Source of the DNA: a bacterium
GTDB taxonomy: Bacteria > UBA8248
Reading direction: 5' to 3'
Assembly: GCA_965219955.1 (NCBI GenBank)
Contig: OZ244799.1
Coordinates: 3,328,001-3,392,000, forward strand
Length of the DNA: 64,000 nt
The notes below the pieces were generated by a model. It worked only from the letters and a program-made list of their open reading frames with translations. It had not been told where the DNA came from and did no database searches. Position 1 is the first letter of the stretch; each line of letters opens with the position of its first letter. Of the stretch, positions 44,513 through 64,000 are shown one piece after another. The position numbers and the translations under genes were made by a program.

Positions 44513-44532
44513 CTGTTCATCCCCTATGATCC

Positions 44533-46598: not shown

Positions 46599-46649
46599 GG
46601 CGATCCTCCCTTTCCGGGTCGTTCTGTATGCAGATACGCATGAGCGCGC

Positions 46650-46691
46650 AAACAAAAGCAGCCTCCCGCCTTTTTCCGAACGGGAGGCTGC
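46650..46691 (-). terminator. Intrinsic terminator after the ABC solute-binding gene
   Basis: GCAGCCTCCCG/CGGGAGGCTGC 11-bp stem followed by TTTTGTTT on the minus strand. Confidence 0.7.
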
Positions 46692-46708
46692 CTGCTATCT
46701 ATCTGCGG

Positions 46709-48247: not shown

Positions 48248-48434
48248 ACACTGCCCTCCTCGAATGGAAACATCAGGGCAAAAGCCCCGATTCCCGGACG
48301 ATCCGAATCCCCCCTGATCACGGAATCAGACGACCCGAATCGCCTCACGCAATAACCGATTCACCAATTTGTAGGCTTGGTATTAACTATAATACTTACC
48401 CGGCGAACTGGCAAGATGAAGCGGCCTCTTCGCG

Positions 48435-49180
48435 GGGGTGTTGAAGAAGTCCTCCCCGGCCGGGGGACAAAGGCAACCCCCCTACCCCCCTTGTCAGGGG
48501 TCAAACGCGAGTGATGAGCGAGCGTTTGCATGAACCATTGACGAGAAACACATCGTCTTGCAAAACCTCCCTCTTCGGTCGGTTTTGACCCCTGACAAGG
48601 GGGGGTAGGGGGGGTTGCTTTTCAGCAAGTGAGGGGGTAATCGAACCGACCGAGGAGGGGCCGCCCCGCAGGGACAGGCCTCCGTGCCTGTCCTGAGGAG
48701 GGACAACCTCAGGAGGCAGGGCGGACACACAGGTCCGCCCCTACGGGTGAATGCGGTTTTGTTCGTCATTCCGGCGAAAGCCGGAATCCATTTGCGGGCG
48801 CGGGTGAATGAACGGCGGCGTTTCATTTCCCGCCGATGCGCGGGAACCCTGATGAAAGGCAAAATGCGTAAAATGGATTCCGGCTTTCGCCGGAATGACG
48901 GCGGTGGTCAATTCCGAGTGAGGAGGGATTTTGGTTGAGCGCACGTTTTTGAAGTTCACTCCCCGGTAGGTAATATACGCCGGATCTCGAAATAATGACT
49001 TTTTTAACAACCCCCTCGTCGGAGGGCATCGACTTTACCCCCCTGACAAGGGGGGGTAGGGGGGGTTGCCTTTATTCCCTGAGGAGGGGAGCTCTTTCAA
49101 CAATCCCCCAAGGGGGGAATCGTTTCTTTTTCCCCGTCGGTCGAGCCGGACCCTCATTCATCGAGGCTTTCCAACAACCC
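48435..49180. repeat. Large mosaic of REP-like palindromes and IS-end remnants between the divergent ABC genes
   Basis: GTGTTGAAGAAGTCC (~48438). CCCCCCTACCCCCCTTGTCAGGGG inverted pair. GTAG-type REPs at 48668-48744. CGTCATTCCGGCGAAAGCCGGAATCCA inverted pair at ~48764-48900. Several right-end motifs (TTTTAACAACCCC, TTTCAACAATCCC, TTCCAACAACCC). Confidence 0.8.
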
Positions 49181-49278
49181 GGAAAAGGCTGCCCGGATCG
49201 TGCATTCGGCCCGGTTATGATAGCATCGAATCTCCTTTTATGGTGTTTTCGTTCTCATCCGGGCGGGACGGTGCGTTC

Positions 49279-50211
49279 ATGTTCGAATATCTGTTGCGGA
49301 GAGTGTTCCTTCTCGTCCCGGTTCTCATCGGGGTTTCGCTCGTCATCTTCCTCTCCATCCGCCTCGTTCCGGGAGACCCGGCCGAAGCCCTCGCGGGCGA
49401 ATTCGCGGATGAGGAGTATATTGCGGAAATCCGCCGGATTTACGGGCTGGACCAGCCCCTCCACGTCCAGTACGGCATGTTCATGAAGCGGGCCTTACAA
49501 GGTGACCTGGGCCGCTCGATCCTCTCGGACAGGCCGGTGCTGAACGAGGTCTGGACCCGTTTTCTCAACACGCTGCAACTCGCTTTCTGGGCGGTGCTCC
49601 TCGCCACCATTGTGGGCTTGCTGGCGGGCGTGTTGTCCGCGACACACCCCTACTCCAAGTTCGACTACGGGAGCATGACGGGCGCTCTGCTCGGCATATC
49701 CATGCCCTCGTTCTGGTTCGGCCTGATACTCATGGGGTTTTTCTCCGTCTATCTCGGGTGGCTCCCGGCGGGGGGAAAGGGCACGGCGGCCCACCTCATC
49801 ATGCCGGTGGTCACGCTCGGGCTTACGGGGGCCGGCCTCATCGCGCGCATGACGCGCAACACCATGCTCGAGATAACGGGGAGTGAATACATCACCACGG
49901 CGCGCTCGAAGGGCCTGGCGAGCGGAAAGGTCCATTACGTCCACGCCCTCAAGAACGCCATGCTGCCCGTCATCACCGTGGTCGGCCTCCAGTCGGGATA
50001 CCTGCTGGGCGGATCGGTGATCACCGAATCGGTGTTCGCCTGGCCGGGCCTCGGGCGCTACATCGTCGAGGCCATCAAGCTGCGCGATTACGCCGCGGTG
50101 CAGGGCTCCTTGCTCTTCTTCGCGCTCACGTTCGCCGTGGTGAACCTGACGGTGGACCTCCTCTACGCGATCTTCAACCCGCGCATCCGTTATGGCGGGT
50201 CGAGCGAATGA
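49279..50211 (+). CDS. ABC transporter permease (DppB/GsiC-like)
   Basis: PGDPA, GLDQPL, GDLGRS, YITTARSKG and FAWPGLG motifs. Confidence 0.93.
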   Translation: MFEYLLRRVFLLVPVLIGVSLVIFLSIRLVPGDPAEALAGEFADEEYIAEIRRIYGLDQPLHVQYGMFMKRALQGDLGRSILSDRPVLNEVWTRFLNTLQLAFWAVLLATIVGLLAGVLSATHPYSKFDYGSMTGALLGISMPSFWFGLILMGFFSVYLGWLPAGGKGTAAHLIMPVVTLGLTGAGLIARMTRNTMLEITGSEYITTARSKGLASGKVHYVHALKNAMLPVITVVGLQSGYLLGGSVITESVFAWPGLGRYIVEAIKLRDYAAVQGSLLFFALTFAVVNLTVDLLYAIFNPRIRYGGSSE

Positions 50212-51104
50212 GCCCGGCCGCCGGCGTCGAATTCATCCCCCAGGAAATCGAAAGCGAACCGATTCGCAGCATGTGGGCGGACACCCTGCGCCGCCTGCTC
50301 AAGCACCGGATCGCCGTGGTCGGGTGCGTCTTCGTCTTCACGTTCGTCGCGATCTCTCTCCTGGCGCCCCTCATCGCGCCCTACGACCCCATAAAAGCGG
50401 ATTTCCAGGCGGCGCTCAAAAACCCCTCGCTCTCCCATCCCTTCGGGACGGACCATTTCGGCCGCGACGTGTTCAGCCGCATCATCTACGGCGCGCGCAC
50501 CTCGCTGCTCATCGGGGTGTTCTCCGTGCTCATCGCCGCGTTCGGGGGCGTGCTGCTCGGCCTCGTCGGCGGGTACCTCGGCGGCTGGATCGACAACCTC
50601 ATCATGCGGACGGTGGACATCATGCTCACCTTCCCGCGCATCCTGCTCTCCATTCTGCTCATCGCCATCATCGGCACGGGGATGGAGAACATCATGCTGG
50701 CGGTGGGCATCTTCGCCATCCCGACCTACGCGCGGCTGGTGCGCAGCTCGGTGCTCGTCATCAAGGAGACCGAATTCGTGGAGGCGGCCCAGGCGATGGG
50801 CGGCTCGAGCCGCCGCGTGCTGTTCCTGCACATCTTTCCGGGGACGCTCGGCCCCATCGTCGTGCAGTCGACCTTCCTCATCGCGACCTCCATCCGCGTG
50901 GCGGCGGGCCTGAGCTTCCTGGGCATCGGCGTGCCCCCGCCCACGCCCGAATGGGGCACCATGCTCGCCGACGCGCGCTCCTACATGGCGCTGGCGCCGC
51001 ACCTGCTCGCCATCCCCGGCTTCGCCCTCATGGGCGTGGTGCTCTCCTTCAACCTGCTCGGCGACGGGCTCAGGGACGCGCTTGATCCGAAGCTGCGGAG
51101 GTAG
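50208..51104 (+). CDS. ABC transporter permease (DppC/GsiD-like)
   Basis: HPFGTDHFGRDVFSR, EFVEAAQAMG and FNLLGDGLRDALDP motifs. Confidence 0.93.
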   Translation: MSPAAGVEFIPQEIESEPIRSMWADTLRRLLKHRIAVVGCVFVFTFVAISLLAPLIAPYDPIKADFQAALKNPSLSHPFGTDHFGRDVFSRIIYGARTSLLIGVFSVLIAAFGGVLLGLVGGYLGGWIDNLIMRTVDIMLTFPRILLSILLIAIIGTGMENIMLAVGIFAIPTYARLVRSSVLVIKETEFVEAAQAMGGSSRRVLFLHIFPGTLGPIVVQSTFLIATSIRVAAGLSFLGIGVPPPTPEWGTMLADARSYMALAPHLLAIPGFALMGVVLSFNLLGDGLRDALDPKLRR

Positions 51105-51176
51105 GGGGGGGATGACAAGGGGAGAGGCGAAAAGGTATTTTGGGGGGTGATGAAAAATGTTTGATGGGGCCGGCGC

Positions 51177-51428
51177 ATGAGTCGAGGCCAACCGCTATTT
51201 GACAGAATTCTCGGTGGTCGCTCTGATGCGAATATCCGCTTTGATGACTTGCGCGGCCTGCTCCGGAATCTGGGGTTCACCGAACGAATACGCGGGAGCC
51301 ATCACGTATTCAGAAAAAAGGGCGTTGCCGAGAGAATCAATCTGCAACGCGACGGCGGGCATGCGAAATCCTATCAGGTAAGGCAGGTCCGTATCATGCT
51401 TCTGAAATACGAACTGGAGGACGAATGA
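51177..51428 (+). CDS. hicA: HicA family toxin
   Basis: DANIRFDDL..LL..LGF.ERIRGSHHVF and AKSYQV motifs. Confidence 0.88.
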   Translation: MSRGQPLFDRILGGRSDANIRFDDLRGLLRNLGFTERIRGSHHVFRKKGVAERINLQRDGGHAKSYQVRQVRIMLLKYELEDE

Positions 51429-51640
51429 CGTTCAAATACGAGATCATTCTCTATTGGAGCAACGCGGACGGCGCTTTCGTGGCCGAAGTCCCGGAGCTTC
51501 CCGGCTGCATGGCGCACGGGGACACGCAGGAAGAGACTCTCAAACACGTCAATCAGGCGATGGAACTCTGGATAGACACGGCGCGAGAGTTCGGCGACCC
51601 CGTGCCCGAACCCAAGGGCGAGCGCTTGATGCTCGCGTGA
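51425..51640 (+). CDS. hicB: HicB family antitoxin (short form without DNA-binding domain)
   Basis: AEVPELPGCMAHGDTQEE...WIDTAREFGDPVPEP. Confidence 0.9.
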   Translation: MTFKYEIILYWSNADGAFVAEVPELPGCMAHGDTQEETLKHVNQAMELWIDTAREFGDPVPEPKGERLMLA

Positions 51641-51651
51641 GGGCTGAAAGC

Positions 51652-51781
51652 GCAAAAGAAATCGCGGCGGAGGTTCCTTGACGACTCCGGGCGCGTGCTC
51701 GCCAGGGAAGCCGACCTCCTCACCGCCATCCGCGCGGATGATTTTCGCCTGGAGAGGATCGTGAGGCGGTTTTATTCGCAG
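51652..51781 (+). pseudogene. Orphan 3' fragment of the RraA-family gene (copy 2)
   Basis: Aligns to ~45722-45853 and encodes RVLAREADLLTAIRADDFRLERIVRRFYS. It has a +1 frameshift upstream and the stop changed to CAG. Confidence 0.85.
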
Positions 51782-51784
51782 GGG

Positions 51785-51878
51785 GGCTTCGCCCTCATGG
51801 CCGTGGTGCTCTCCTTCAACCTGCTGGGCGACGGGCCCAGGGACGCGCTCGACCCGAAGCTGAGGCGGTAGGGGGGGA
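51785..51878 (+). pseudogene. Orphan 3' fragment of dppC
   Basis: 87-bp codon-aligned copy of 51018-51104 (7 differences, 5 synonymous), plus the downstream G-run. Confidence 0.9.
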
Positions 51879-51985
51879 CGCCGGAGAAGCGGAACTCCTC
51901 TGCGTCATTCGTGAAGGGGGATTTCAGTCCGGTTCACTTTTCCATTTCCAAAATTAAAGAGAATATAGTGCGTTTTCGAAAAACA

Positions 51986-52804
51986 TCACTTCTTGCTCAG
52001 TTCCAGCAACCCGACCTGGTAGGCTATGGATCTTCCCAATCTACGGAAACCATGCCTGGCGCCTTTAACGATATCCAGCCGGGCGGATACGCCGCGCTCT
52101 TTTAGGTACCGAATGTAGGGGCGGCATAATTCTGCAGGGTTCGTAGTATCGCGAGAGCCGGTTATTGCGATGATCTTTGCGTTCGGCGGTATCTTGTCGA
52201 CATAGTCAATGGGATTGATATCCTCCGATCTATACGTCCTGCCCTGCATCATCTTCTTGGCTTCCTTATCGCAAGCGCACCCCGCCAACAGCGCCGCGTC
52301 CGCAACGCCCGGATGACGGCCAAGCATGACCGCAGATATGTTCGAACCGCCTGAATGACCGATCATGACTACCCGCGAGGCCTTGTGGTGAATCTTCAGC
52401 TTCCGGACAGCCGCGGCTATCGCATCGATGCTTTCTTCAGTCTCCCAGTTTCGACGACCATAAGTCTTGGGGCTTGATCGCCTGCCTTCCCGGTCGTAGT
52501 GATCGGGGCGCAGCATGGCGACCGACACGACGCCGGGAGCATAGATAGAGGCGTAGCGATACATGTAATCCGATGGTCCGCCCCTGCTGTTGTCGCCGTG
52601 GAGAAAGACGCGCAAAACCGGTCGAGAAACCTCCTTGTCATGCACGAAAGTCTTGATCGCGAAGCAGAGATTCTTCCCGGAAACCCAGTTAAGGTTATCC
52701 GTTTTTTCGCAAGGTGGGCTGGACGAAACAACCGAAGCGGTGAGAAACAGCGGACAAACCACAGCAGCAATTGCTGCAAGGCGCCTGATCACCATAACCG
52801 GCAT
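51986..52804 (-). CDS. Secreted alpha/beta hydrolase
   Basis: Signal peptide, FLHGD, GHSGG nucleophile elbow, GSRD and ARH catalytic residues. Confidence 0.85.
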   Translation of the reverse strand: MPVMVIRRLAAIAAVVCPLFLTASVVSSSPPCEKTDNLNWVSGKNLCFAIKTFVHDKEVSRPVLRVFLHGDNSRGGPSDYMYRYASIYAPGVVSVAMLRPDHYDREGRRSSPKTYGRRNWETEESIDAIAAAVRKLKIHHKASRVVMIGHSGGSNISAVMLGRHPGVADAALLAGCACDKEAKKMMQGRTYRSEDINPIDYVDKIPPNAKIIAITGSRDTTNPAELCRPYIRYLKERGVSARLDIVKGARHGFRRLGRSIAYQVGLLELSKK

Positions 52805-52967
52805 TCTCCTTCTATGGGATATTCAATTAAAATGTTTAACCGAACATTTCATATCCAGCTATGCGTCCCGGATGAATATTCTTCACCAATCCGGCTATGT
52901 GGCGGACACGGTTAGACTCACCTGTCCAGAACCGGATGAGTTGACGCTCGCTCCCGGTAAAGTCCGG

Positions 52968-53170
52968 CAGGGAAGCCACCGCGGCAACGATGCTGTTTAT
53001 CTCCTGGGTGGTGTATATGTCATCGCGGGATTGCTCACGTGTCGCCTCACCGGAAGAGGTGCGCCCGTCGAGCGTATGTCCCGGGCGCGCCATTGCTGCG
53101 CCAATCGCACCGTACGCCGCGGCTCTCCCTGCCACCGGCATGCCAATCCATGAAGACCCTCGATACGACT
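52968..53170 (-). pseudogene. Internal fragment of a paralogous alpha/beta hydrolase
   Basis: GAIGAAMARPGHTLDGRTSSG...YTTQEINSIVAAVASL aligns with GVVSVAMLRPDHYDREGRRSS...ETEESIDAIAAAVRKL of the adjacent gene. Confidence 0.6.
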
Positions 53171-53211
53171 CTTCCGCAAAATAGACACGCGACATCGCCG
53201 ATGATGCTGAA

Positions 53212-53255
53212 ATTATAAGAAGGCGCACACTTTTTTACGTCCCCGGAATTGGGGA
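53212..53255 (-). promoter_or_regulatory. Putative activator-dependent promoter: palindrome TCCCCGGAATTGGGGA plus TATAAT
   Basis: 16-bp palindrome at 53240-53255 and minus-strand TATAAT at 53217-53212, 22 nt apart. Confidence 0.6.
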
Positions 53256-53293
53256 GATTCAGCGCATATTTGCATATACCAGGGAGAATTCGG

Positions 53294-54707
53294 GGTAAAG
53301 TCCTAAACTTGCTGGAAAAATCAGAGGGGTGCATCCTCGGCAGAGGCAACACAAAACCGTGCCGGTAAGCGCCGGCACCAAACCGAGGAGGCACCCCATG
53401 AAGAAGAGAATACAGGCATCGATGCACACACGCCAATCCCTGTCCGACTTGATCGAAGGCCGTCTGTCGAGTCCCGATGCGCGGGCCGACCTGGTGAAGC
53501 TCGCCACGCGGCTCATCGTGGAAGAGGCGCTGGAGGCGGAGAGCCGCGACGCTCTGGGCCGGGAATACTACGAGCACGGAGCGAAGCCCGGCCAAGGCTA
53601 CCGCAACGGCCACCGTGCTGGTCGTCTCAAGACGGCGGAAGGGTTCGTCGAGTTCGCGGCGCCTCAGATTGCCGGGCGCGAGGAGGCGTTCCGCTCGGCG
53701 ATTAGAGACAACCTCAAGGGGCGCACCGAGGGGCTCGAGGAGTTGGCGGTGGAGCTTCTGGCGCGCGGTCTCTCGGTGCGGGACATCGAGGACGTCTTCA
53801 GCGACGAGAGCGGCCGTCTGCTGCTCTCTCGCACGGCGGTCTCCGAGCTCGGCGAACGGTTGTGGTCAGAATATCAGGAGTTCGCTTTGCGGGATTTGGG
53901 CGAGTACGAGGTCGTCTATCTGTTCATCGACGGGATCGCCGAGCGGCTCCGCCCGGGGAGCAAGCGCGAGCCGGTGCTGGCGGCCTGGGGAATCACGGCG
54001 AACGGTGCCAAGGTGCTGCTGCACCTGATGGCGGGTTCGAAAGAAGACGCCGAGACGGTGAGCGCGTTCTTCCAGGACATGCGCGCCCGGGGTCTGGGCG
54101 ACCCGCTGGTTGTAGTGAGTGACGGAGCGCCCGGCATCATCAAGGCGATCGAGACGTGCTTCCCGCGCTCGGAGCGGCAGCGCTGTCTGGCGCACCGCAT
54201 GCGGAACCTCGCGGCGAAGGCGCCCGAGGACCTCTGGCCGGAGTTCAGGGAGCGGGCCGCGGCGGCCTACCAGGCCCCCTCGCGCGCCATCGCCCGGGAG
54301 TTGGCCGAGGGACTCGCCAGGGACTACGAGTCCAAACTACCCAGCGCCGTGGCTTGCTTCCGCGACGACTTCGAAGCCTGTATCGCGCACCTGCGTGCGC
54401 CGGTCAACCATCGCCGGGCCGTGCGCACCACGAACCAGCTGGAGCGTTTGTTCGTCGAGGAGCGCCGAAGGCTCAAGATCATCCCGAATGCCTTCGGCGA
54501 GAAACCGGTGCTCAAGCTCATGTTCAGCGCCATGATCCGGGCCGCCGAAAGGTGGCGCGCGCTCAAGATTACCGGCTTCGAACGACGCCAGATGGAAGCC
54601 CTCAGACGGGAACTGGACCAGAACTACGAGGAGGAAAACGAACTCAACCGCAGGCCCTCAGCCGATATGCGCCAAAAGAAAGTTTCCAGCAATTCTCGGA
54701 CTTGACC
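53294..54707 (+). mobile_element. IS256 family insertion sequence, apparently complete (1414 bp)
   Basis: Imperfect TIRs GGTAAAGTCCTAAACTTGCTGGAAA / GGTCAAGTCCGAGAATTGCTGGAAA. 9-bp TSD AGAATTCGG at 53285-53293 and 54708-54716. Confidence 0.93.
53398..54705 (+). CDS. IS256 family DDE transposase
   Basis: GYRNG, GLSVRDI, YLFIDG, VVSDG, QRCLAHRMRN and RTTNQLER motifs. Confidence 0.95.
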   Translation: MKKRIQASMHTRQSLSDLIEGRLSSPDARADLVKLATRLIVEEALEAESRDALGREYYEHGAKPGQGYRNGHRAGRLKTAEGFVEFAAPQIAGREEAFRSAIRDNLKGRTEGLEELAVELLARGLSVRDIEDVFSDESGRLLLSRTAVSELGERLWSEYQEFALRDLGEYEVVYLFIDGIAERLRPGSKREPVLAAWGITANGAKVLLHLMAGSKEDAETVSAFFQDMRARGLGDPLVVVSDGAPGIIKAIETCFPRSERQRCLAHRMRNLAAKAPEDLWPEFRERAAAAYQAPSRAIARELAEGLARDYESKLPSAVACFRDDFEACIAHLRAPVNHRRAVRTTNQLERLFVEERRRLKIIPNAFGEKPVLKLMFSAMIRAAERWRALKITGFERRQMEALRRELDQNYEEENELNRRPSADMRQKKVSSNSRT

Positions 54708-54759
54708 AGAATTCGGGGAGATATACGACGACAGCGAAGGCCCGGAGCTGTTATTGCCT

Positions 54760-55908
54760 TCAATCTCGAGACTCCGGAGCGCCGGCCAGCGACAGCACGA
54801 GCCGCACCAGATCCACCTGCCGCGAGAGGCCGAGCTTTGCGAACATGTGCTTCACGTGCGTGCGGATCGTACTTTCCTTTCGGCCCGTCGCCGAGGCTAT
54901 CGCACGAACGCCCATGCCTTCGGCCAACAACACCGCCACCCGGCTCTCCATACCCGTGAGACCCAGGGCGTCACCCACGATAGCCGGATCGATGCGGGTC
55001 CGGCTCGCCGGGTCCACAACCAGTACGAGCGCCGCGACCGGCCAGGGGCGGGAGTCCGTCTCCAGCCGAGCCACCGGGTTGACGTGCAAAACCAGCGGCA
55101 GGGCCGGCGCACGCCTTATTATCGCAGAGCCGCCGACGCCCTGAGTCCCGAACGGCGGCAGCGCCCGGTTCAGCAATCCCTGGAGGTTGGCGTTGTCCTC
55201 AGGCCTCCGGGCGAACAGGAAACCGCGCTCATCGAACAGGCCGTCTCCGGCACGCAGCAAATCCCAGGCGCGGTCGTTCACTTCCACGATCCGCCCGCGC
55301 GGGTCGAGCTGGATGACGCCTGACCCGGTGGTGTCGAGCAGCCTCGTGAGGGAGGCGCCCAGAGCATCCGCGCCGTCAAGCGTCTGCCGGAAGCGCACGT
55401 ATTGGCGGATATGGGGCAGGAGACGCCGGATCAGGCCGAGCTGAGCCGATGACCAGTCGCCTCCGTCAACCGGGTCGTTGATGCCCCAGCAGATGCTCGA
55501 GCCGTCGGGCCCGTCCAGGCGCACGTTGATGCTGTTCCGGGCAAGCATGAGGGTTGAGCATTCGTTGAACACCAGAGAGGTTTTCTGCTCCTCCTCGGAG
55601 AAGAGGTCGGCAAAATGGCAAAGTTGGCTGTCGGGGAGTCGCCGCAGGCGCGGAAGCCGCTCGTCCAGGGGGAAGTAGACATCGAAGTACTCGCGTTCGA
55701 ATTCGTGGTGCCGGTATCCCTGGTAGAAAAACCGCGCCAGGTGGACCCGAACGTCCGCTCCGGAGTGTAAATCGCCGACAGCAAAGCAGTTGCCGTATAC
55801 GCCGAGGGCATCGTCGATCAGCGCGGAGGCGGTCGACAGCCTGGCATCGTCCATCGCCGCCTCCTGCAACGAGGCCACGATGCGCTCGAACGCCTCCCGT
55901 TCACTCAT
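54760..55908 (-). CDS. PAS-LuxR helix-turn-helix transcriptional regulator
   Basis: PAS-like GVIQLDPRGRIVEVN and C-terminal LTGMESRVAVLLAEG...TIRTHVKHMFAKLG HTH. Confidence 0.9.
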   Translation of the reverse strand: MSEREAFERIVASLQEAAMDDARLSTASALIDDALGVYGNCFAVGDLHSGADVRVHLARFFYQGYRHHEFEREYFDVYFPLDERLPRLRRLPDSQLCHFADLFSEEEQKTSLVFNECSTLMLARNSINVRLDGPDGSSICWGINDPVDGGDWSSAQLGLIRRLLPHIRQYVRFRQTLDGADALGASLTRLLDTTGSGVIQLDPRGRIVEVNDRAWDLLRAGDGLFDERGFLFARRPEDNANLQGLLNRALPPFGTQGVGGSAIIRRAPALPLVLHVNPVARLETDSRPWPVAALVLVVDPASRTRIDPAIVGDALGLTGMESRVAVLLAEGMGVRAIASATGRKESTIRTHVKHMFAKLGLSRQVDLVRLVLSLAGAPESRD

Positions 55909-56196
55909 GACGCCTTCCCGGAAAGCGGGAGCAAGGCCGGCCCATATTCCATTATATCAAGAGGCGAGAACCCTCTCTGGTTGTCCATATGACCCCTCGT
56001 AGTCATGGACACCGACATCGTTGCGGGTAAATCGAACTGTTTCAGCCGCGCCCGAACCACATGCCCGGTCCGGAGTCATTTGAACAAACCCGACAGCGCA
56101 TTTCATGTCGCCGCTATTCAATTTCTCCACTCCGAGCGATGCAGAAGTGTCTATCCATTGTTGTTCCGCGAGTTCAGGCGAAATTACAATACTTAA

Positions 56197-56240
56197 AGTA
56201 TAGGATATCGCACGCTTCTTCTCTTCCCCAAAATTGGGGA
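56197..56240 (-). promoter_or_regulatory. Second putative activator-dependent promoter: TCCCCAAAATTGGGGA plus TATACT
   Basis: Palindrome at 56225-56240 and minus-strand TATACT at 56202-56197, again 22 nt apart. Confidence 0.6.
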
Positions 56241-56300
56241 GACCCGGAGGAATTCCCGGAATGTTCAGGGGATTTCAGGGAAACCAAACGTAACCGGCGG

Positions 56301-56536
56301 CGGGTGATCTGGTTCACGCGGACGGGGGTGGTGCGCTCGTGGCGCCGAAAGAGATCGCGGCGGACGTTCCCGAAACCGCCGGGCGCGTGCCCGCCAGGGA
56401 AGCCGACCTCCTCGACGCCATCCGCGCGGAGGACTTCAGCCTGGAGGAGATCGTGAGGCGGTTTTATTCGTGAGGGGGGGACCACACGGCATATCCACAA
56501 GCAATACCGTGTAGGGACAGGTCGCGACCTGTCCTC
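56301..56536 (+). pseudogene. Orphan 3' fragment of the RraA-family gene with its downstream flank (copy 3)
   Basis: In-frame GDLVHADGGGALVAPKEIAADVPETAGRVPAREADLLDAIRAEDFSLEEIVRRFYS*, then GACCACACGGCATATCC and a REP, as at 45681-45919. Confidence 0.9.
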
Positions 56537-56829
56537 GTGTTTCGGTCATCATTACCCGCAGGGGTCAGACATATATGTCTGGCTGCGTGTTCTCCCGTTT
56601 TTTCTGCCCGCGCCCGCTCGATCGGGCGGATACAAAACCTCATCCTGAGTAGGCACGAAAGCGCCGTATCGAGGGATGGGAGGCGCCTTCCGGCGCGCAG
56701 AGCAATCGCTTCCGCATTGGGCGCGATTGATCTTCGATACACGGCTCCGCCGCTACTCAGGATGAGGAGGATGTGAGGACTTTTTCAACAACCCCTCATC
56801 AGTCGCGATTGATCCTTCAAGGGGGAGTG
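56511..56829. repeat. REP-like palindrome mosaic
   Basis: GTAGGGACAGGTCGCGACCTGTCC. CCTCATCCTGAGTAG...CTACTCAGGATGAGG pair at 56638-56767. GGACTTTTTCAACAACCCC at 56777-56795. CCTTCAAGGGGGAGTG. Confidence 0.7.
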
Positions 56830-56947
56830 GTTTCTCCCTTCCCGCTCGTCGGCGGTTTTGACACTCACGCCGCGGGGTGTGGTATGATCCGCCGCGTTAC
56901 GGGATAAAGGCGAAGGACGCGAATCAAACCAGGGGAGGCGTGACGCC

Positions 56948-57301
56948 ATGAAGGTGATGAACTACAAGGACGCGGAACTGAAAGCGGAGAAGGCGGCCAA
57001 GGGCGCGGGCATCCGCTGGCTGCTCAGCGAGCGCGACGGCGAGACCGGGATGGCGATGCGGGTCATCGAGATAGAAGCGGGCGGGCAGACGCCCGACCAC
57101 GCCCACTCCTGGGAGCACCAGGTGTTCATGCTGAAGGGCGAGGGCCGGGTGGTCGTCGAGGGCGAGACGCGGGCCATCGCGCCGGGGGCGGCGATTTTCG
57201 TGGCGCCTGGCGAGAACCACACCTTCCACAACGATTCGGACGAGACGATGGAGTTCGTCTGCATGATTCCCGTGAGCGCTACCAAGGCGTACGAGCACTA
57301 G
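56948..57301 (+). CDS. Cupin domain protein
   Basis: HAHSWEHQVFMLKGEG and PGENHTF motifs. Strong RBS and an upstream TGTGGTATGAT extended -10. Confidence 0.9.
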   Translation: MKVMNYKDAELKAEKAAKGAGIRWLLSERDGETGMAMRVIEIEAGGQTPDHAHSWEHQVFMLKGEGRVVVEGETRAIAPGAAIFVAPGENHTFHNDSDETMEFVCMIPVSATKAYEH

Positions 57302-57552
57302 GGCGCAGGACCTGCTTCGAATTTCCGTAAATTTCGATAAAATTCGATAAAATAAGATAAATTCACGGGGTTTTTCGATAAATAACCGGCCATTTTGGAG
57401 GGGAAATGCGGGGAGCCGCGCGGGCGTAAATCCCCCTCCCGCAGAAACATCGTGAGGATACCACGGCCCCGCAGGCGCTCGCGCAGCGGCAAATGCGGGG
57501 AACTGCCGGGTTGAAGCTCCTGGCGGGCGTTCTTCCCGGGCGTCCGCGAATA

Positions 57553-57600
57553 CCACAATATGTAGCCTCAAAAAATCATTTCTCACACAATATATGGGCG
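57553..57600. promoter_or_regulatory. Tandem NrdR-box-like sites
   Basis: CCACAATATGTAGCCT (57553) and ACACAATATATGGGCG (57585) fit acaCwAtATaTwGtgt, 32 bp start to start. Confidence 0.65.
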
Positions 57601-57784
57601 AAATAGCCCCGTACCCGGAAAAATCCGAAGAAAAATCAATTTTTATAAAAATAACTCATTATATTTCAATAAGTTATAATTATTTATGCAGGAATCGCTT
57701 TAAGCGAGGCAGAGGGGCCATATTTTTTTATTTTATATAAAGTAAATAAATACAACAGGTTATATTAGTTAATGAAAAAATTAC

Positions 57785-57814
57785 TTGAAATAAAATCCGG
57801 GCGCTTGGTATATT
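57785..57814 (+). promoter_or_regulatory. Probable sigma70 promoter of the GAF-mreB operon
   Basis: TTGAAA-N18-TATATT with TG extension and an AT-rich upstream region. Confidence 0.55.
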
Positions 57815-57850
57815 CCGAAACATCCCAATCCGTCCCGTCGGGTGCCAGTA

Positions 57851-59305
57851 ATGACGAACCTGGAAAGAGACCTTTTCTCCCTCATCACGCTCGTCAGCAA
57901 CGTCACGGAAGCTTACTCCGCCTGCCTGTTCCTTGAAAACAAACGCCGCAAGACCTACCAGCTCACCACCTATCACAGCCTTAGCCCCTACATCCTCGCG
58001 GATGCTTCGGTCGATGTGGGCCAGGGCTTCATGGGTTGGGTTTTGGAGAACAACGAGCCGTTAAGCGTCAATCAATTCGACAAAGACACGCTCGTTCTCG
58101 GCTATTACAGCAGGAACGAGGATATCAAGTCCTTCATGGCGACCCCCCTGCCTTCTTCCATCAACAAGGGGGCGCTCGCCATCGACAGCAAAAAAAGCTG
58201 GTGCTTCACGTCCAGAGACCAAAAGATACTCGCGGGGTTCGCCCAGCAATTCGCCTATCTTGCAGACGGTGCCATGACGAGCGTTCAAATGGAACGACGC
58301 TCCATGAGCGTTCCCGCCTTCAGCAGATACCTGACCTCGCTTCGATCCAGCGAGAATGAAGGTCAATTGTTGAATGCGATATGCCAGGTACCGCGCGAGT
58401 TGCTTCCCTTCGACGCCTGCTTCCTCGTCCTCGTTGACGAGGAAGCAGGCTTCCCCCGCCTTGTCCGGACTTCCGGGTTCGGGGAACTCTTCCTGGGCGA
58501 AGTCACCATCAGTGAACGCGCAAGCCTGGCGGGGTATGTACTGAATAAAAAAGAAAGCTTAAGGCTCCCGGACCTGAAAGGGAAAAAAGGAACCAGACCA
58601 CTCTTCCATCATGATGAACCCCAGTTCGATGCGCGCTCCGCCGTGTGCCTTCCTCTCATCTCAAGAGGTGAAATTCTTGGTTGTCTGGGGTTCGCCAGCA
58701 AACATCGGGCGCAATTTGACGCATCTTCCGTTCAACGCGGAGAAATCATTGCCGGTATTGTGGCAGATGCAATCGCAAATCGGAAAAACGAGTTGCGCTG
58801 GCAAGCACGTTTGGAAATCGACACCCTCACCGGCGAACCGAATATACAATACCTGCATTCTCGTCTTCATGAAATTATCCGCGACGCAGAAACCAGGGGG
58901 CGCCAACTCGCGCTGCTCAGCATCGCTCCCGATGCTTCATCAGAATTCAAGGACATATCGCAGGAAGAGGTAATTCTTCAGCTCTCGAATTCGCTAAAAC
59001 AGTTCGCTACCGGAGATGATATTCTGGTGCGGCATGAGGGGCCCCGATTCCTCTTGTTATTGCAAGACTCCTCCCAGGAATATGCTGAAGCTGTGGCAGA
59101 ACGAATATTGAATGTCGTTGATCACACTCCCTTCTACTTCGGCGGAAAAGAGTTCGAAATCACGATTTCAATAGGTGCGGCATGTTTCCCTGAAACTGCG
59201 AGAAGCTCAAAACACCTTATCCAATCATCTCTTGAAGCACTCGGTTACGCTCAAAAAGGGGGCAGGATAAATCAACTTTGCTTTATGGGGGGAGATAGTT
59301 CATGA
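57851..59305 (+). CDS. GAF-GAF-degenerate GGDEF protein
   Basis: Two GAF domains (GQGFMGWV...SFMATPL; SLAGYV...SAVCLPL) and a C-terminal DTLTG...RHEGPRF...ITISIG. Confidence 0.85.
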   Translation: MTNLERDLFSLITLVSNVTEAYSACLFLENKRRKTYQLTTYHSLSPYILADASVDVGQGFMGWVLENNEPLSVNQFDKDTLVLGYYSRNEDIKSFMATPLPSSINKGALAIDSKKSWCFTSRDQKILAGFAQQFAYLADGAMTSVQMERRSMSVPAFSRYLTSLRSSENEGQLLNAICQVPRELLPFDACFLVLVDEEAGFPRLVRTSGFGELFLGEVTISERASLAGYVLNKKESLRLPDLKGKKGTRPLFHHDEPQFDARSAVCLPLISRGEILGCLGFASKHRAQFDASSVQRGEIIAGIVADAIANRKNELRWQARLEIDTLTGEPNIQYLHSRLHEIIRDAETRGRQLALLSIAPDASSEFKDISQEEVILQLSNSLKQFATGDDILVRHEGPRFLLLLQDSSQEYAEAVAERILNVVDHTPFYFGGKEFEITISIGAACFPETARSSKHLIQSSLEALGYAQKGGRINQLCFMGGDSS

Positions 59306-60339
59306 AATTACATTTTGTAAAGCGTCTCAGATCTTGGATGGGGCCCAACATCGCGATGGACCTGGGGACAGCGAATACTCTGGTTTACACAAAAAATGCT
59401 GGAATCGTTCTTGATGAGCCCTCTGTCGTCGCCTTGAACTCGAACAATGGAGGAGGTGTTCTCGCTGTAGGGAAAAAAGCCAAGGAGATGTACGGCCGGA
59501 CTCCAGATTCCATTCGGACAATTCGCCCCATGAAAGATGGAGTAATTGCGGATTTTGACGTAACCAAAGCAATGATACGCCATTTTGTCGGTACGATAGT
59601 GCCCAAAAGATCTTTCAGCCGACCTACAATGATGGTTTGTGTTCCCTCAGGAATCACCAGCGTTGAAATGAAAGCCGTAATTGATTCCGCCACCCAATGT
59701 GGGGCCGGCAAGGTCCATTTAATCGAAGAACCCATGGCTGCGGCCATCGGAAGTAAGCTACCCATCCATGAAATCGCCGGCTCCATGATTGTTGATATCG
59801 GGGGAGGAACGACCGAAATGGCCGTCATCTCTCAATATGCCGTTGCATATTCAGAATCCCTACGCATGGCGGGAGATGCAATGGACGAATGCATACAACG
59901 CCACATTAAAAGACACCACGGTTTATCGATCGGCTCATTCGAGGCTGAACGCGTTAAAATGGAAATTGGAGCGGCAGCTCCACTTACAGAGCCGCTTGAA
60001 ATGGAAATTTCTGGCGCAGATGTTTCCACAGGCATGCCCCGCACCATCAAGTTATCCGATGAATCAGTGCGAGAAGCTCTCGACGGTCCTGTAAAAGCCA
60101 TTGTTGAATCAATTCGAAAAGCGCTGTCCAAAACAAGCCCTGAACTCGCTTCAGACATTTACCGAAGAGGAATCGTTTTAGCAGGCGGCGGTTCACTCCT
60201 GAAAGGACTTGGGACCAGGCTCCATGAAGAAACGGGTCTCCCTATTTATAGAGTAAAAGACCCGCTAACCACAGTCGTCCGCGGTACTGGACACGTACTA
60301 GACCACTTAAAGGACTTCAAGCAAGTCTGTCTGAACTGA
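59302..60339 (+). CDS. mreB: Rod shape-determining protein MreB family actin homologue (stand-alone paralogue)
   Basis: DLGTANT, EPSVVA, RPMKDGVIADF, EEPMAAAIG, DIGGGTTE and LAGGG motifs. No mreC/mreD follows. Confidence 0.93.
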   Translation: MKLHFVKRLRSWMGPNIAMDLGTANTLVYTKNAGIVLDEPSVVALNSNNGGGVLAVGKKAKEMYGRTPDSIRTIRPMKDGVIADFDVTKAMIRHFVGTIVPKRSFSRPTMMVCVPSGITSVEMKAVIDSATQCGAGKVHLIEEPMAAAIGSKLPIHEIAGSMIVDIGGGTTEMAVISQYAVAYSESLRMAGDAMDECIQRHIKRHHGLSIGSFEAERVKMEIGAAAPLTEPLEMEISGADVSTGMPRTIKLSDESVREALDGPVKAIVESIRKALSKTSPELASDIYRRGIVLAGGGSLLKGLGTRLHEETGLPIYRVKDPLTTVVRGTGHVLDHLKDFKQVCLN

Positions 60340-60362
60340 TATTCAAGAGCACCACCCCCCCA

Positions 60363-60402
60363 ACCGGGGACCCGGCCCCATGCGCAATACCGGGTCCCCG
60401 GT
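60363..60402. terminator. 13-bp perfect stem-loop after mreB (no U-tract)
   Basis: ACCGGGGACCCGG...CCGGGTCCCCGGT. Confidence 0.5.
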
Positions 60403-60513
60403 CCCTTCCAGCAGAATGACTGTAGAGAGATTTTACTGTCACAAATTATCCGGTAGAATTAACATATATTTATTCTTGGTTTTTTAAACCTTTTGTTTCA
60501 ACAGGAAAGAAAA

Positions 60514-60786
60514 ATGACTTTCTCACAACAAGGCGATTCATACTCATTCGAAACATCCATAGAAGACATGAAACTAGTTTACAGGATCCTGCATCGCCAT
60601 ATCGGAGAGCACCTTGAGCTTATGGATAGTGCGTTCATGGATGAATTACAAATCGCGCTACAAAAAAAAGCTCAAAAAGAAGGAGTGGATATCGGCCATC
60701 ACGGTGCATGGGACTTATGGCTGGGTAACGATGCGACAACCCCATGTGAGGAACGTGTAAAAAAACGAAAAACATTCGATAGTTAA
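60514..60786 (+). CDS. Small hypothetical protein
   Basis: 90-aa ORF after AGGAAAG (…LVYRILH…HLELMDS…GVDIGHHGAWDLWLG). No family recognised with certainty. Confidence 0.65.
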   Translation: MTFSQQGDSYSFETSIEDMKLVYRILHRHIGEHLELMDSAFMDELQIALQKKAQKEGVDIGHHGAWDLWLGNDATTPCEERVKKRKTFDS

Positions 60787-61661
60787 CCCTCGCCTCCGAG
60801 ACGTAATTCCAATGATTGATTCAGAACTTCCATCACTATATCTGTAGGCATATCCACTCCCGTCCACATCTTCCAAGCAGCCGCTGCTTGATATACCAGC
60901 CAACCCGTTCCGCGAACAATTTGAGCACCAGCCCGTCTGGCTGCTTTCAGAAATGCCGTATCAGGAGGAATATAGACCGCATCCGAACAGATACAATCCT
61001 CAGGTATGGCGTTTTCGGGAATCGGGGTGGTCGCCATACGTTCGGTGTCTCCCCACATCCCGAGGCTTGTCGTATTCACGATAATCTCGCAACCTTCAGC
61101 CGCCGAATACAGATCGTCTAAGCCACCGCCATTTACCTTGGAAGAAGGAACGCTCTTCTCCACAAATTGCGCCAACTCCAATGCTTTGTCATATGTTCGA
61201 TTTCTAATATCTAGGTGAGCCGCTCCGCACTGGGCTATTTTGACGGCAATGGCTCTCGCTGCCCCTCCTGCACCCAAAACAAGACATTTCTTTTCCCTGG
61301 GATGCTCTCCCGTTGTTTCCTCCAAAAATCGGAGCCAACCGATACCATCCGTATTGTGGCCGACAAGATTCCCATCTTCTTCAAAAACTATCGTGTTTAC
61401 TGCACCCATCAAACGGGCATCTTCACTCAATTCATCCATGAGTTTGGCGACAGCCACCTTATGCGGAATCGTGATTGTGAGTCCGCGAAATCCCATCGCC
61501 TGGGCTCCTCGCACGGCTTCTTCCAAAAAATCCGGGTGCACTTCATAGGCCAGATAGTGATAATTCAAACCCAACACTTCAGCCGCTTTGTTGTGCAGTA
61601 CAGGTGATAAAATATGGCCTGCCGGATATCCAAGAACTCCCAATGGGATCGGATTTGGCAC
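60783..61661 (-). CDS. aroE: Shikimate dehydrogenase family
   Basis: LSPVLHN, TIPHK, GAVNT, GHNTDG, LGAGGAARA and NTTSLGM motifs. Confidence 0.9.
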   Translation of the reverse strand: MPNPIPLGVLGYPAGHILSPVLHNKAAEVLGLNYHYLAYEVHPDFLEEAVRGAQAMGFRGLTITIPHKVAVAKLMDELSEDARLMGAVNTIVFEEDGNLVGHNTDGIGWLRFLEETTGEHPREKKCLVLGAGGAARAIAVKIAQCGAAHLDIRNRTYDKALELAQFVEKSVPSSKVNGGGLDDLYSAAEGCEIIVNTTSLGMWGDTERMATTPIPENAIPEDCICSDAVYIPPDTAFLKAARRAGAQIVRGTGWLVYQAAAAWKMWTGVDMPTDIVMEVLNQSLELRLGGEG

Positions 61662-61866
61662 GAATGTTCTCCTTCACATTATTCCATCAAGTAATACAGC
61701 ATTCGTGATCAACTTGTAGCTATTAGAATATATACATAGACTAGATTTTTCGGAGCCTGTTCGCAATGGAAAGATTACCGCATCTCTTGAGGTGTTTGAG
61801 AGCCTGCAAAGCTCAACATTGCACAAAAAACCAGGCATCCACATACGCCACATATTTGAGGGCCTC

Positions 61867-64000
61867 ATGAATGAATTTAAGGTAGCTGGGAAAAATATCC
61901 CCAGATACGATCTGCCGGATAAAGTTGTGGGCACGGCAAAATTCGCAGCAGACGTCACTGCAGTGCAGCCCCTTGTTGGTTTAATTCTCAGAAGTCCACT
62001 ACCACACGCTCGTATCGTTTCTATAGACACGAAGGAAGCCAAAGAAATACCGGGCGTGCGGGCCGTGCTGAAAGGCAATGATTGCCCCCCTCACCTTTTC
62101 GGTCTTGAGATCAAAGATATGTGCTGGCTGGCTCGTGATGGGTATGTCCGATACATCGGAGACCCTGTTGCAGCCATTGCGGCTGAATCGATGGATGCCG
62201 CTCAAGCGGCGCTTGATTCTATTCAGGTGAACTATGAAGCCCTTGAACCTGTGGTGGACCTTTTGGAAGCGCGTGACGGCAAGGGTCCACTCGTACATGA
62301 AGATTGGGAAAAAATAGGCTTAGGTCCCAATGGGGAAGGGAATGTAATCGGTCGCTATGAAATGGCCATGGGCGATGTAGGCGCCGCTATGGAAAAAGCA
62401 GACCACACATTCGAACACACATTCCAAACCCCATACGCGCATTCTGGATATATCGAACCTCATGCCTGTACGGTGGAGCCGGGGGCCGATGGAAAAATCA
62501 CGATTTGGACAACAACGCAAGCACCCTTCGTCATCCGCGACCAAGTCGCAGCGGCTTTGGGGATTACGTTGACGAAAGTAAAAGTCATCCCCACGGAAAT
62601 CGGCGGTGGATTCGGGGGTAAGATTCATTCGTTTGTTGAACACATCATCGCATTGCTTGCTCTCAAAAGCGGGCGCACCGTGCGCCACGAGATGACGCGT
62701 GAAGACGATCATAACGGCGTCGGTCCCAGGCAAGGGTTACGAATACACTTAAAAACCGGAGTAACCTCTGATGGCAAAATTCTAGCTCGCGAAACAGATG
62801 TCATCGTCGACCACGGCGCATATGGCCCCGGCGCTCCGACGCAGGCGAGTTCCCGCATCCCGATGTTCACCAGCTGCTACAACATCCCTGATTGTTCGGT
62901 GACAATGGCGAGCGTCTACACCAACGGACCCATATGCGGCTCGGTGAGAGGACCATGCGGGCCCCAATGCTTCTTCGCAACAGAGGTACATCTGGACATC
63001 ATCGCGCGCGAACTAGGCATCGACCCCTTTGAAATCAGGAGAAAAAACGGCATTCGAAAAGGCGACACCGGCTTGTTCGGTACGCAAAAAGACGACGGCA
63101 TGCTCAAAGTTTTGGAAAGCACCGCCAAAGAAGGAAACTGGGGCGAGGCTATCGAAACGAATGTGGATTTGGAAGGTCCTGGGTGGAAGCTAGGTCGCGG
63201 CCTTGCCGTTAGTTTTTGGCGCGGAAGTGGCGGGGCTTCCGCGTGCACGGCGCGCTTAAATGCAGACGGTAGCATCCAGCTCCTCAGTGGCTCCGTGAAC
63301 CTTACGGGCGCAACAACCTCGATGTGCCAGATTGCCGCGGAAATGATGGATATCGGCTTTGGGCAAGTATCTTTTGACAGCGGCGATACCGACACCGCTC
63401 CGGAATCCATCCACGCGGCGGGCAGCATGCTGACCCGCTCAATGGGCGCCGCCGTGATTGTTGCCGTAGACAATTTGAAAGAAAAAATTCGAGGCGTAGC
63501 CGCTGAAAAACTTGAAGCCGACCCGGATGATTTAAAAATAGAAGGAGGGTGTGTATTTTCGATATCTACGCCCGAGCGCTCCATGTCATTGAGTGAAGTG
63601 GCGAAAGTGGCGCCAGGGATTTCAGGTTATATTATGGGCCAAGGTGAAACACAGACGCCGGCTTTTTGCCCCATCTACACGGCGCAAATCGCGGAGGTGG
63701 CCGTAAATCTGGATTCGGGTGAGGTTAAAATTTTGAGGCTGGTTTGTTCACAGGACGTGGGCTTCGCCATGAACCCTATTTCCGTCGTCGGCCAAATGGA
63801 AGGTGGGATGCTTCAGGGAATCGGTTTGGCTCTTCTGGAGGAACAGCCTCGAGACGAGGCCGGCAATATCTTTGGTGGAACTCTCCATGAATATCTTCTG
63901 CCCACCAGTCTGGATGTACCCGAGTTGAAAACCGTGATGGTTGAGAACAAGGCGGATGATACGCCTTACGGTATGAGAGGTGTCGGCGAACCGCCCATAC
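61867..64000 (+). CDS. Xanthine dehydrogenase/CoxL family molybdopterin-binding subunit, truncated by the window edge
   Basis: Not in the ORF track. MNEFKVAGKNIPRYD...RSPLPHARI...IGGGFGGK...SVRGPCGPQ...GQMEGG...GVGEPP, open to the window end. Confidence 0.92.
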   Translation, partial: MNEFKVAGKNIPRYDLPDKVVGTAKFAADVTAVQPLVGLILRSPLPHARIVSIDTKEAKEIPGVRAVLKGNDCPPHLFGLEIKDMCWLARDGYVRYIGDPVAAIAAESMDAAQAALDSIQVNYEALEPVVDLLEARDGKGPLVHEDWEKIGLGPNGEGNVIGRYEMAMGDVGAAMEKADHTFEHTFQTPYAHSGYIEPHACTVEPGADGKITIWTTTQAPFVIRDQVAAALGITLTKVKVIPTEIGGGFGGKIHSFVEHIIALLALKSGRTVRHEMTREDDHNGVGPRQGLRIHLKTGVTSDGKILARETDVIVDHGAYGPGAPTQASSRIPMFTSCYNIPDCSVTMASVYTNGPICGSVRGPCGPQCFFATEVHLDIIARELGIDPFEIRRKNGIRKGDTGLFGTQKDDGMLKVLESTAKEGNWGEAIETNVDLEGPGWKLGRGLAVSFWRGSGGASACTARLNADGSIQLLSGSVNLTGATTSMCQIAAEMMDIGFGQVSFDSGDTDTAPESIHAAGSMLTRSMGAAVIVAVDNLKEKIRGVAAEKLEADPDDLKIEGGCVFSISTPERSMSLSEVAKVAPGISGYIMGQGETQTPAFCPIYTAQIAEVAVNLDSGEVKILRLVCSQDVGFAMNPISVVGQMEGGMLQGIGLALLEEQPRDEAGNIFGGTLHEYLLPTSLDVPELKTVMVENKADDTPYGMRGVGEPPI

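What the first reader, a model, noticed from the sequence alone, without database searches (positions are those of the whole stretch)
57851..60339. Candidate undescribed system: GAF-GAF-dead GGDEF protein coupled to a stand-alone MreB
Seen: the genes overlap by ATGA, the operon is closed by a 13-bp hairpin and there is no mreC/mreD/pbp2/rodA. In the GGDEF-like domain the signature reads EGPRF, the metal-binding DID reads APD, the NDxxGH segment is absent and there is no RxxD I-site, so it should neither make nor canonically bind c-di-GMP. MreB keeps its ATPase motifs and an amphipathic N-terminus. Inference: a ligand-responsive adaptor that regulates or positions a second actin filament outside the Rod complex. 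My unverified recollection is that a similar GAF-mreB pair occurs in sulfate-reducing deltaproteobacteria.
Basis: partly seen in the sequence, partly recalled or inferred. Interest (0 to 1): 0.75.

Follow-up and report, generated by a model that had tools for sequence, protein, structure and literature searches.

The report
GAF sensor locked to second MreB
A sensor-type protein is encoded back-to-back with an ancient second copy of the bacterial actin MreB in about 120 genomes from four deep bacterial lineages, and it likely controls that spare filament through its first GAF domain, a pairing I could not find described in the papers searched.

Summary
A GAF-GAF-dead-GGDEF gene (57851-59305) overlaps a second mreB (59302-60339) by ATGA. 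The genome keeps a separate mreB-mreC-mreD-pbp2-rodA operon. In four phylum samples, 120 of 123 matches to the first GAF domain had an mreB directly downstream; 2 lay at contig edges and 1 was a true exception. The GAF-linked MreBs form one old branch (SH-aLRT 99, quick tree) and keep the ATPase, lateral-contact and membrane-binding residues.

14 of 50 full-length orthologues lack it, another clade lacks GAF2, and this genome has no other GGDEF and no EAL or PilZ match. Only GAF1 is universal. The pair is near oriC only within this family. In Desulfovibrio vulgaris the syntenic pair (DVU1682/DVU1681) is dispensable, while mreB-1 is essential.

Best reading: a dedicated metabolite-sensing GAF partner that regulates an accessory MreB filament. 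This scan found the same pair three times before on other DNA. Ten literature searches found no description of it.

The parts
57664..57676 (+). IHF-like site (one mismatch to a recalled WATCAANNNNTTR consensus) in the AT-rich upstream region
   Evidence: Sequence. 16 exact matches in 18 related upstream regions against a shuffled mean of 0.7, maximum 4; the regions are related, so not independent.
57785..57814 (+). sigma-70-like promoter with extended -10
   Evidence: 10 of 12, TG present. CTTGA is invariant in 18 aligned upstream regions. RNA contigs of two samples of one study begin at 57836 and 57837 (contigs cannot show a start).
57851..59305 (+). 484-aa GAF-GAF-degenerate GGDEF protein
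57851..58300 (+). GAF1, the only domain present in every orthologue examined; invariant G62, Y86, P99, D112, F119
   Evidence: Closest solved sequences are the GAF domains of PtsP (3ci6, E 2e-13).
58355..58780 (+). GAF2, absent in one clade of orthologues
58817..59266 (+). degenerate GGDEF domain (EGPRF, APD, no RxxD); the only GGDEF match in the genome
59302..60339 (+). MreB2, 345 aa, member of an old GAF-linked MreB branch; overlaps the GAF gene by ATGA
60363..60402 (+). 13-bp GC-rich hairpin without U-tract, likely marking or protecting the transcript 3' end
   Evidence: Changes on both sides at 7 of 13 pairs over 16 rows, one row off-target. One RNA contig ends at 60360.

Best explanation
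This is an ancient two-gene module in which a cytoplasmic GAF protein likely binds and regulates, through its first GAF domain, a second MreB that is predicted to form membrane-bound filaments and is accessory to the essential Rod-system MreB. Shown: the pairing, the separate mreBCD-pbp2-rodA operon, one branch for the GAF-linked MreBs, intact catalytic and lateral-contact residues, GAF1 as the only universal domain, and dispensability of the syntenic pair in D. vulgaris. Inferred: the ATGA overlap couples translation so the two proteins are made in fixed ratio; GAF1 binds a cytoplasmic metabolite; ligand state sets assembly or placement of MreB2; and MreB2 tunes wall growth or cell form under conditions not met in rich laboratory medium. 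The GGDEF is a relic of a sensor-cyclase ancestor, probably structural, and c-di-GMP is probably not the signal. My odds: functional coupling about 0.9, direct binding about 0.55, the whole chain 0.45.
For: Adjacency: 44 of 46 GAF1 matches in the 49 own-phylum genomes (the other 2 at contig edges); 17 of 17 strong matches in 91 Desulfobacterota-type genomes; 42 of 43 matches in 51 genomes of the phylum of a Bdellovibrionales-labelled MAG; 17 of 17 in 26 Nitrospinota-type genomes. The other flanking genes change between lineages. Of the 74 Desulfobacterota-type genomes without the GAF orthologue, 62 have one mreB match, 1 has none and 11 have two. 43 GAF-linked plus 2 GAF-less MreBs form one branch, SH-aLRT 99, of 107 rows. 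MreB2 keeps D20, G22, T23 and E143 in 56 of 56 rows, V121 in 55 of 56, and a hydrophobic residue at 105 in 56 of 56. These align to Caulobacter E140, V118 and F102; E140 and V118 roles are from PMC4051119 passages, the membrane role of F102 is recalled. No intact GG[DE]EF in 36 of 36 GGDEF-bearing rows. No other GGDEF, no EAL and no PilZ match in the 94%-complete single-contig genome. In two small genomes both partners are divergent together and still adjacent (L216, L218). DVU1682 and DVU1681 are non-essential and DVU0789 is essential (PMC10102598 Table S5); their synteny with suhB and idi matches locus L079. One RNA contig spans the gene junction.
Against: No binding or ligand data were obtained. 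Two MreB2-branch genes lack the GAF neighbour (L160, L162) and one GAF gene lacks an adjacent mreB (L217), so the link is not obligatory. Rate covariation was inconclusive: over all 63 branches GAF1 tracks MreB2 better than MreB1 (partial r 0.63 against 0.22), but on the 33 terminal branches there is no difference (0.62 against 0.63). The longitudinal-contact residue S284 varies (S in 13 of 56). Both genes are dispensable in D. vulgaris, and the paper's main text does not mention mreB. Many GAF domains are dimerisation modules without a known ligand (established knowledge). The tree is a quick search without bootstrap and is rooted only by midpoint.
Confidence: 0.45

Rival explanations
1. MreB2 is a Rod-system isoform like Bacillus Mbl or MreBH that co-assembles with MreB1. 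The GAF protein is co-expressed for the same condition but acts on another target, without touching MreB2.
For: MreB2 is 54-56% identical to MreB1 and passes the ordinary MreB family cut-offs. RodZ is in the genome. Two MreB2 genes exist without the GAF gene.
Against: MreB2 does not cover for mreB-1, which is essential in D. vulgaris. Residues nearly fixed in mreC-linked MreBs are lost in GAF-linked ones, at positions 89, 100, 181-182, 206, 239 and 339. Overlap or near-overlap of the two genes persists across four lineages.
Confidence: 0.25
2. The direction is reversed: MreB2 is a scaffold that positions the GAF protein as a signalling hub (compare dead-GGDEF adaptors such as PelD, PopA or CdgA), and the output is not cell shape.
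For: PelD is among the fold matches of the GAF1-plus-GGDEF form. The pair is dispensable for growth. The dead domain is retained in a genome with no other c-di-GMP domain found.
Against: No output domain is shared by all orthologues: the GGDEF-like domain is absent in 14 of 50 and GAF2 is absent in another clade. There is no RxxD site. No third gene travels with the pair.
Confidence: 0.15
3. The GAF protein is a ligand-independent chaperone or inhibitor that keeps a potentially harmful MreB2 in check, like an antitoxin.
For: In wild-type D. vulgaris libraries insertions in DVU1682 are depleted (density 0.32, normalised reads 0.23) while mreB-2 is normal (0.85, 1.34). The regulator is encoded first and coupled.
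Against: The depletion is absent in the JW710 background (0.95, 1.05). Two genomes carry MreB2 without the GAF gene. GAF1 keeps invariant residues (Y86, D112) that may line a pocket (pocket assignment is inference).
Confidence: 0.1
4. The two genes are neighbours by inheritance only and have no shared function.
For: Related genomes are not independent observations. Rate covariation on terminal branches is not specific.
Against: 120 of 123 matches are adjacent across four phylum samples at 20-30% protein identity while all other neighbours change. Presence of the GAF gene tracks presence of the MreB2 branch.
Confidence: 0.05

Closest known systems
Desulfovibrio (Nitratidesulfovibrio) vulgaris Hildenborough DVU1682 'GAF domain protein' and DVU1681 'mreB-2'
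   Same: Same order and a 1-base overlap, apart from essential mreB-1 (DVU0789); downstream suhB and opposing idi as in locus L079 (PMC10102598 Table S5 rows).
   Different: DVU1682 spans 1,035 nt, the size of the GAF-GAF form without GGDEF. It is only annotated; no study was found. Orthology rests on synteny, size and annotation, not on a direct sequence comparison.
MreB isoforms of Bacillus subtilis (Mbl, MreBH) and Spiroplasma (MreB1-5)
   Same: Extra MreB copies outside mreBCD that form separate branches (bioRxiv 10.1101/2020.05.13.095042 passages).
   Different: That paper's text has no mention of Deltaproteobacteria, Desulfo-, Nitrospin- or GAF. None of these isoforms is tied to a sensor gene, as far as I recall.
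Bdellovibrio bacteriovorus MreB2 (Bd1737)
   Same: A stand-alone second MreB in a related group (review PMC6985089 passages).
   Different: Reported essential. Its neighbours are an aminotransferase (Bd1736) and a 204-aa hypothetical gene (Bd1738), not an annotated GAF gene. I could not obtain the sequences, so membership in this branch is untested. A third, unrelated stand-alone MreB clade exists in the sampled phylum.
Degenerate GGDEF adaptors: PelD (Pseudomonas), PopA (Caulobacter), CdgA (Bdellovibrio)
   Same: A GAF or receiver domain plus a catalytically dead GGDEF. PelD is a fold match of the short form.
   Different: PelD and PopA bind c-di-GMP at an RxxD site (recalled), which is absent here. 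The GGDEF is dispensable in this family, and none of them is tied to mreB.
GAF domain of PtsP (EI-Ntr)
   Same: Best solved-structure sequence matches to GAF1 (3ci6 E 2e-13, 3trc E 5e-11). It senses glutamine and 2-oxoglutarate (recalled).
   Different: Low identity; there is no phosphotransferase domain here. The ligand cannot be transferred by analogy.

Membership tests
MreB/Mbl family | Scores above the curated MreB model cut-offs | tested here: met
   PF06723 430 bits; TIGR00904 436 against 365.75; PRK13927 445 against 293. Below the MreBH, MamK and BeeR cut-offs.
MreB/Mbl family | ATPase motifs and catalytic glutamate | tested here: met
   D20, G22, T23, E143, G169, G296 in 56 of 56 rows; D165 in 55 of 56. 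Degenerate copies L216 and L218 were not in that alignment.
MreB/Mbl family | Residues for antiparallel double filaments and membrane binding | tested here: inconclusive
   V121 in 55 of 56; hydrophobic residue at 105 in 56 of 56; amphipathic N-terminus. S284 is kept here but varies in the family. Assembly itself was not tested.
Canonical Rod-system MreB | Encoded with mreC/mreD and branching with mreC-linked MreBs | tested here: not met
   No mreC beside it; separate branch.
Canonical Rod-system MreB | Essential for growth | tested here: not met
   From published data on the syntenic D. vulgaris gene only; not testable in this organism.
Canonical Rod-system MreB | Binds RodZ and moves with PBP2/RodA | not testable with these tools
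   RodZ is present. Two paper look-ups for the interface residues gave nothing.
Active diguanylate cyclase | GG[D/E]EF signature, metal-binding aspartate, NDxxGH | tested here: not met
   EGPRF, APD, segment absent; 0 of 36 GGDEF-bearing orthologues are intact.
c-di-GMP receptor of PelD/PopA type | RxxD I-site | tested here: not met
   The position reads TGDD.
c-di-GMP receptor of PelD/PopA type | Host has c-di-GMP enzymes | tested here: not met
   No other GGDEF, no EAL and no PilZ match. Genome 94% complete; HD-GYP not searched.
Ligand-sensing GAF protein | GAF fold | tested here: met
Ligand-sensing GAF protein | Binds a small molecule | not testable with these tools
   Only conservation of residues.
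Bdellovibrio MreB2 (Bd1737) type | Same branch and same neighbour as Bd1737 | not tested
A search for 77-259-aa GAF1 proteins returned 18 hits, none named Bdellovibrio.

The most novel reading that the evidence does not exclude
A signal-gated bacterial actin system: a dedicated GAF sensor binds a metabolite and directly switches assembly of its own MreB filament, which has a job apart from the Rod complex. It would be conserved since before the split of Nitrospinota, Desulfobacterota and related phyla.
Probability: 0.3. Interest if true: 0.85.

Novelty: new variant of a known kind. Interest (0 to 1): 0.62.

Why it matters
Why many bacteria keep several MreBs, and how MreB assembly is tied to metabolism, are open questions. 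Known MreB regulators are membrane anchors, toxins or small inhibitors (recalled); I know of no dedicated small-molecule sensor for an MreB. This pair names a candidate regulator and narrows the working part to one 150-residue domain. Both genes can be deleted in D. vulgaris, which has a barcoded mutant library, so the question is directly testable. It would also define an MreB subfamily that I could not find described, spanning sulfate reducers, Nitrospina relatives and sponge-associated bacteria.

Tried and rejected
Cluster-member look-up for organism names could not be made.

A fixed position near ori or ter was rejected. The pair lies 81-194 kb from dnaA in 8 of 8 single-contig genomes of the same family, including this one (136 kb). 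In 3 of 3 more distant genomes it is 21-46% of the chromosome away; two of those have two DnaA matches. No credible dif site was found.

A c-di-GMP receptor role was rejected. A classical intrinsic terminator was rejected (no U-tract). No Rfam match in 44000-64000.

My first guess that this is the Bdellovibrio mreB2 locus is not supported by its annotated neighbours and remains untested by sequence.

The AU test of a duplication within this phylum did not finish in two runs. The careful tree did not finish; both trees are quick searches. Three short MreB fragments were dropped before the first tree, and 28 rows (6 long branches, 22 near-duplicates) before the second. Rate covariation was inconclusive.

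The representative-protein search was swamped by multi-GAF proteins and not used further. The atlas search returned only generic GAF clusters. RNA runs were contigs only, and two of the four had small shares; they cannot show strand, level or ends. One row (L058) of the hairpin alignment was cut at wrong coordinates and is off-target.

In the Desulfobacterota-type sample I counted as orthologues only the 17 matches at 119 bits or more; the next was 74 bits. The weaker matches in 14 other genomes had no mreB beside them by coordinates.

Literature searches that found no description of the pair. Fenton et al. 2010 was not held, and most subscription journals are outside the library.

Full report
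Observation. The sequence shows a 484-codon gene at 57851-59305 whose stop overlaps the start of a 345-codon gene at 59302-60339 by ATGA. Pfam finds two GAF stretches and a GGDEF domain in the first and MreB_Mbl in the second. The second passes the curated MreB cut-offs and stays below those of MreBH, MamK and BeeR. An AlphaFold model (pLDDT 86) gives GAF1, GAF2 and a GGDEF fold, and its fold matches are sensor-cyclases and tandem-GAF proteins. The GGDEF signature reads EGPRF, the metal site APD, the NDxxGH stretch is missing and there is no RxxD. A perfect 13-bp hairpin follows at 60363-60402. It shows changes on both sides at 7 of 13 pairs in 16 rows, one of them off-target, but has no U-tract. 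A sigma-70-like promoter at 57785-57814 is conserved in relatives. In sponge metatranscriptome assemblies, contigs of two samples of one study begin at 57836-57837, and one contig spans the gene junction and ends at 60360. This fits one transcript, but contigs cannot prove it.

Host and the other MreB. The window lies in a single 4.28-Mb contig. Close relatives are labelled Nitrospinota, Nitrospinaceae or Tectomicrobia. The genome has a second mreB, 54-56% identical, heading mreC, mreD, pbp2 and rodA (these four gene names are read from sequence and order), and it has a RodZ match. The first refutation test therefore fails: this is not the only mreB. The dead GGDEF is the only GGDEF match in the genome, with no EAL or PilZ match (94% complete, HD-GYP not searched).

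Conservation of the pair. Own phylum: 46 of 49 genomes match and 44 of 46 have mreB directly downstream, the other two being cut by contig ends. Desulfobacterota-type sample: 17 of 91 genomes have a strong match and 17 of 17 have the adjacent mreB plus another mreB elsewhere. Of the 74 without it, 62 have a single mreB match. Phylum of a Bdellovibrionales-labelled MAG: 42 of 51 genomes give 43 matches; 40 are adjacent by coordinates, two more sit beside a degenerate mreB, and one has none. Nitrospinota-type sample: 17 of 26 genomes match and 17 of 17 are adjacent. That is 120 of 123 matches, in 119 genomes. A Schekmanbacteria record also has the pair. Other neighbours change between lineages. 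Kin are not independent, but the span reaches 20-30% protein identity.

Phylogeny. In a 107-row tree, all 43 GAF-linked MreBs and two GAF-less ones (L160, L162) form one branch with SH-aLRT 99, apart from 45 mreC-linked MreBs, many from the same genomes. This points to one old duplication. The tree is a quick search, 28 long or near-duplicate rows were left out, and the test of a more recent duplication did not finish. An earlier 92-row tree with the long branches placed all mreC-linked rows on a branch free of GAF-linked ones with support 89. MreB2 evolves about 2.6 times faster than MreB1 (tree lengths 16.4 and 6.3). It keeps the catalytic E143 in 56 of 56 rows, the lateral-contact V121 in 55 of 56 and a hydrophobic residue at 105, while S284 varies. 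Several residues nearly fixed in mreC-linked MreBs are lost, as expected if it has other partners (inference).

Which part of the partner matters. Of 50 full-length orthologues, 36 carry a GGDEF-like domain, none intact, and 14 end after GAF2. A third form has GAF1 followed directly by a GGDEF-like remnant, with no GAF2 (Pfam; profile comparison probability 92, E 8e-7; model and fold search). One genome has a 164-codon GAF1-only frame before a broken remainder and an intact mreB2. GAF1 is thus the only constant. Its invariant residues include Y86 and D112, and its closest solved sequences are the PtsP GAF domains.

Position. The origin lies near 3,525 kb (dnaA, DnaA boxes, parS-like sites; the skew minimum is about 80 kb further on), 136 kb from the pair. 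Similar distances hold in 8 of 8 single-contig genomes of the family but not in 3 of 3 more distant ones. Position is family synteny, not a property of the module.

Genetics in a relative. DVU1682 (GAF domain protein) overlaps DVU1681 (mreB-2) by one base, both are non-essential in two backgrounds, and mreB-1 is essential. The downstream suhB and opposing idi match locus L079, which supports orthology without a direct sequence comparison. Insertions in DVU1682 are depleted in the wild-type library but not in JW710. Homologues of a 345-aa GAF-GAF form are named Desulfovibrio. For Bdellovibrio bacteriovorus, a review states that both mreB copies are essential. The neighbours of Bd1737 are an aminotransferase and a 204-aa hypothetical gene (supplement rows), so it is not shown to be this module.

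How it likely works. The two proteins are probably made in fixed ratio. GAF1 likely binds a cytoplasmic metabolite and contacts MreB2, setting where or when it assembles on the membrane. The filament is accessory and likely tunes wall growth or cell form in conditions that rich medium does not impose. Functional coupling is well supported (about 0.9). Direct binding (about 0.55), the ligand and the output are inference. Against this: three exceptions to the pairing, an inconclusive rate-covariation test, and no reported phenotype.

Novelty. Extra MreBs and dead-GGDEF adaptors are known kinds. A sensor gene fixed to its own MreB branch was not found in ten searches. What I saw of papers: passages of PMC6985089, PMC10102598, PMC4051119, PMC12991368, PMC8836040 and bioRxiv 10.1101/2020.05.13.095042; supplement rows of PMC10102598, PMC3627812 and PMC12546842 (one file of the last was unreadable); a term search with no hits in PMC6052060; nothing of Fenton et al. 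2010. The scan itself noted the pair three times on other DNA, which is not independent evidence. I rate it a new variant of a known kind, interest 0.62, with a 0.3 chance of the bolder reading.

Noticed in passing
window 60514-60786 (+): A 90-aa ORF with no Pfam or NCBIfam match follows mreB2 in most loci of the same family (60-100% identity) but not in more distant ones. It is single-copy in the genome and has its own promoter-like site at 60432-60459. Atlas clusters are unnamed.
   Followed up: partly
L237-L246 (phylum of G043): A third, stand-alone MreB clade (support 100) nested among mreC-linked MreBs, with no GAF or mreC neighbour; many genomes of that phylum have three MreBs.
   Followed up: partly
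L216:3877-4959 and L218: Strongly degenerate MreB2 copies (in L216 the catalytic glutamate motif is altered) still sit beside a divergent GAF gene in two 1.8-1.9 Mb genomes.
   Followed up: partly
L160:2968-3990 and L162:2993-4015: MreB2-branch genes without the GAF gene, preceded on the other strand by a thermonuclease-like gene and followed by a small convergent ORF in both genomes (the nuclease label is recalled).
   Followed up: partly
window 57600-57790: AT-rich upstream region with repeated IHF-like motifs about 100 bases apart, conserved across the family.
   Followed up: partly
window 57330-57520: A short repeated element (TTTCGATAAA copies and GC-rich arms) that matches many unrelated RNA contigs, suggesting a dispersed repeat.
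   Followed up: no
B. bacteriovorus Bd1738 (supplement rows): A 204-aa hypothetical gene one base from mreB2 (Bd1737). The coordinates suggest it lies upstream on the same strand (inference). Whether it is a GAF1 relic is untested.
   Followed up: partly
window 53329-54705 (+), 51177-51428 (+), 54760-55908 (-): Mutator-family transposase, a HicA-like toxin ORF (below the Pfam cut-off) and a LuxR-type regulator upstream of the pair; not conserved neighbours.
   Followed up: no
whole genome G000: No intact c-di-GMP enzyme or PilZ match was found in a 4.28-Mb genome, apart from this dead GGDEF.
   Followed up: partly
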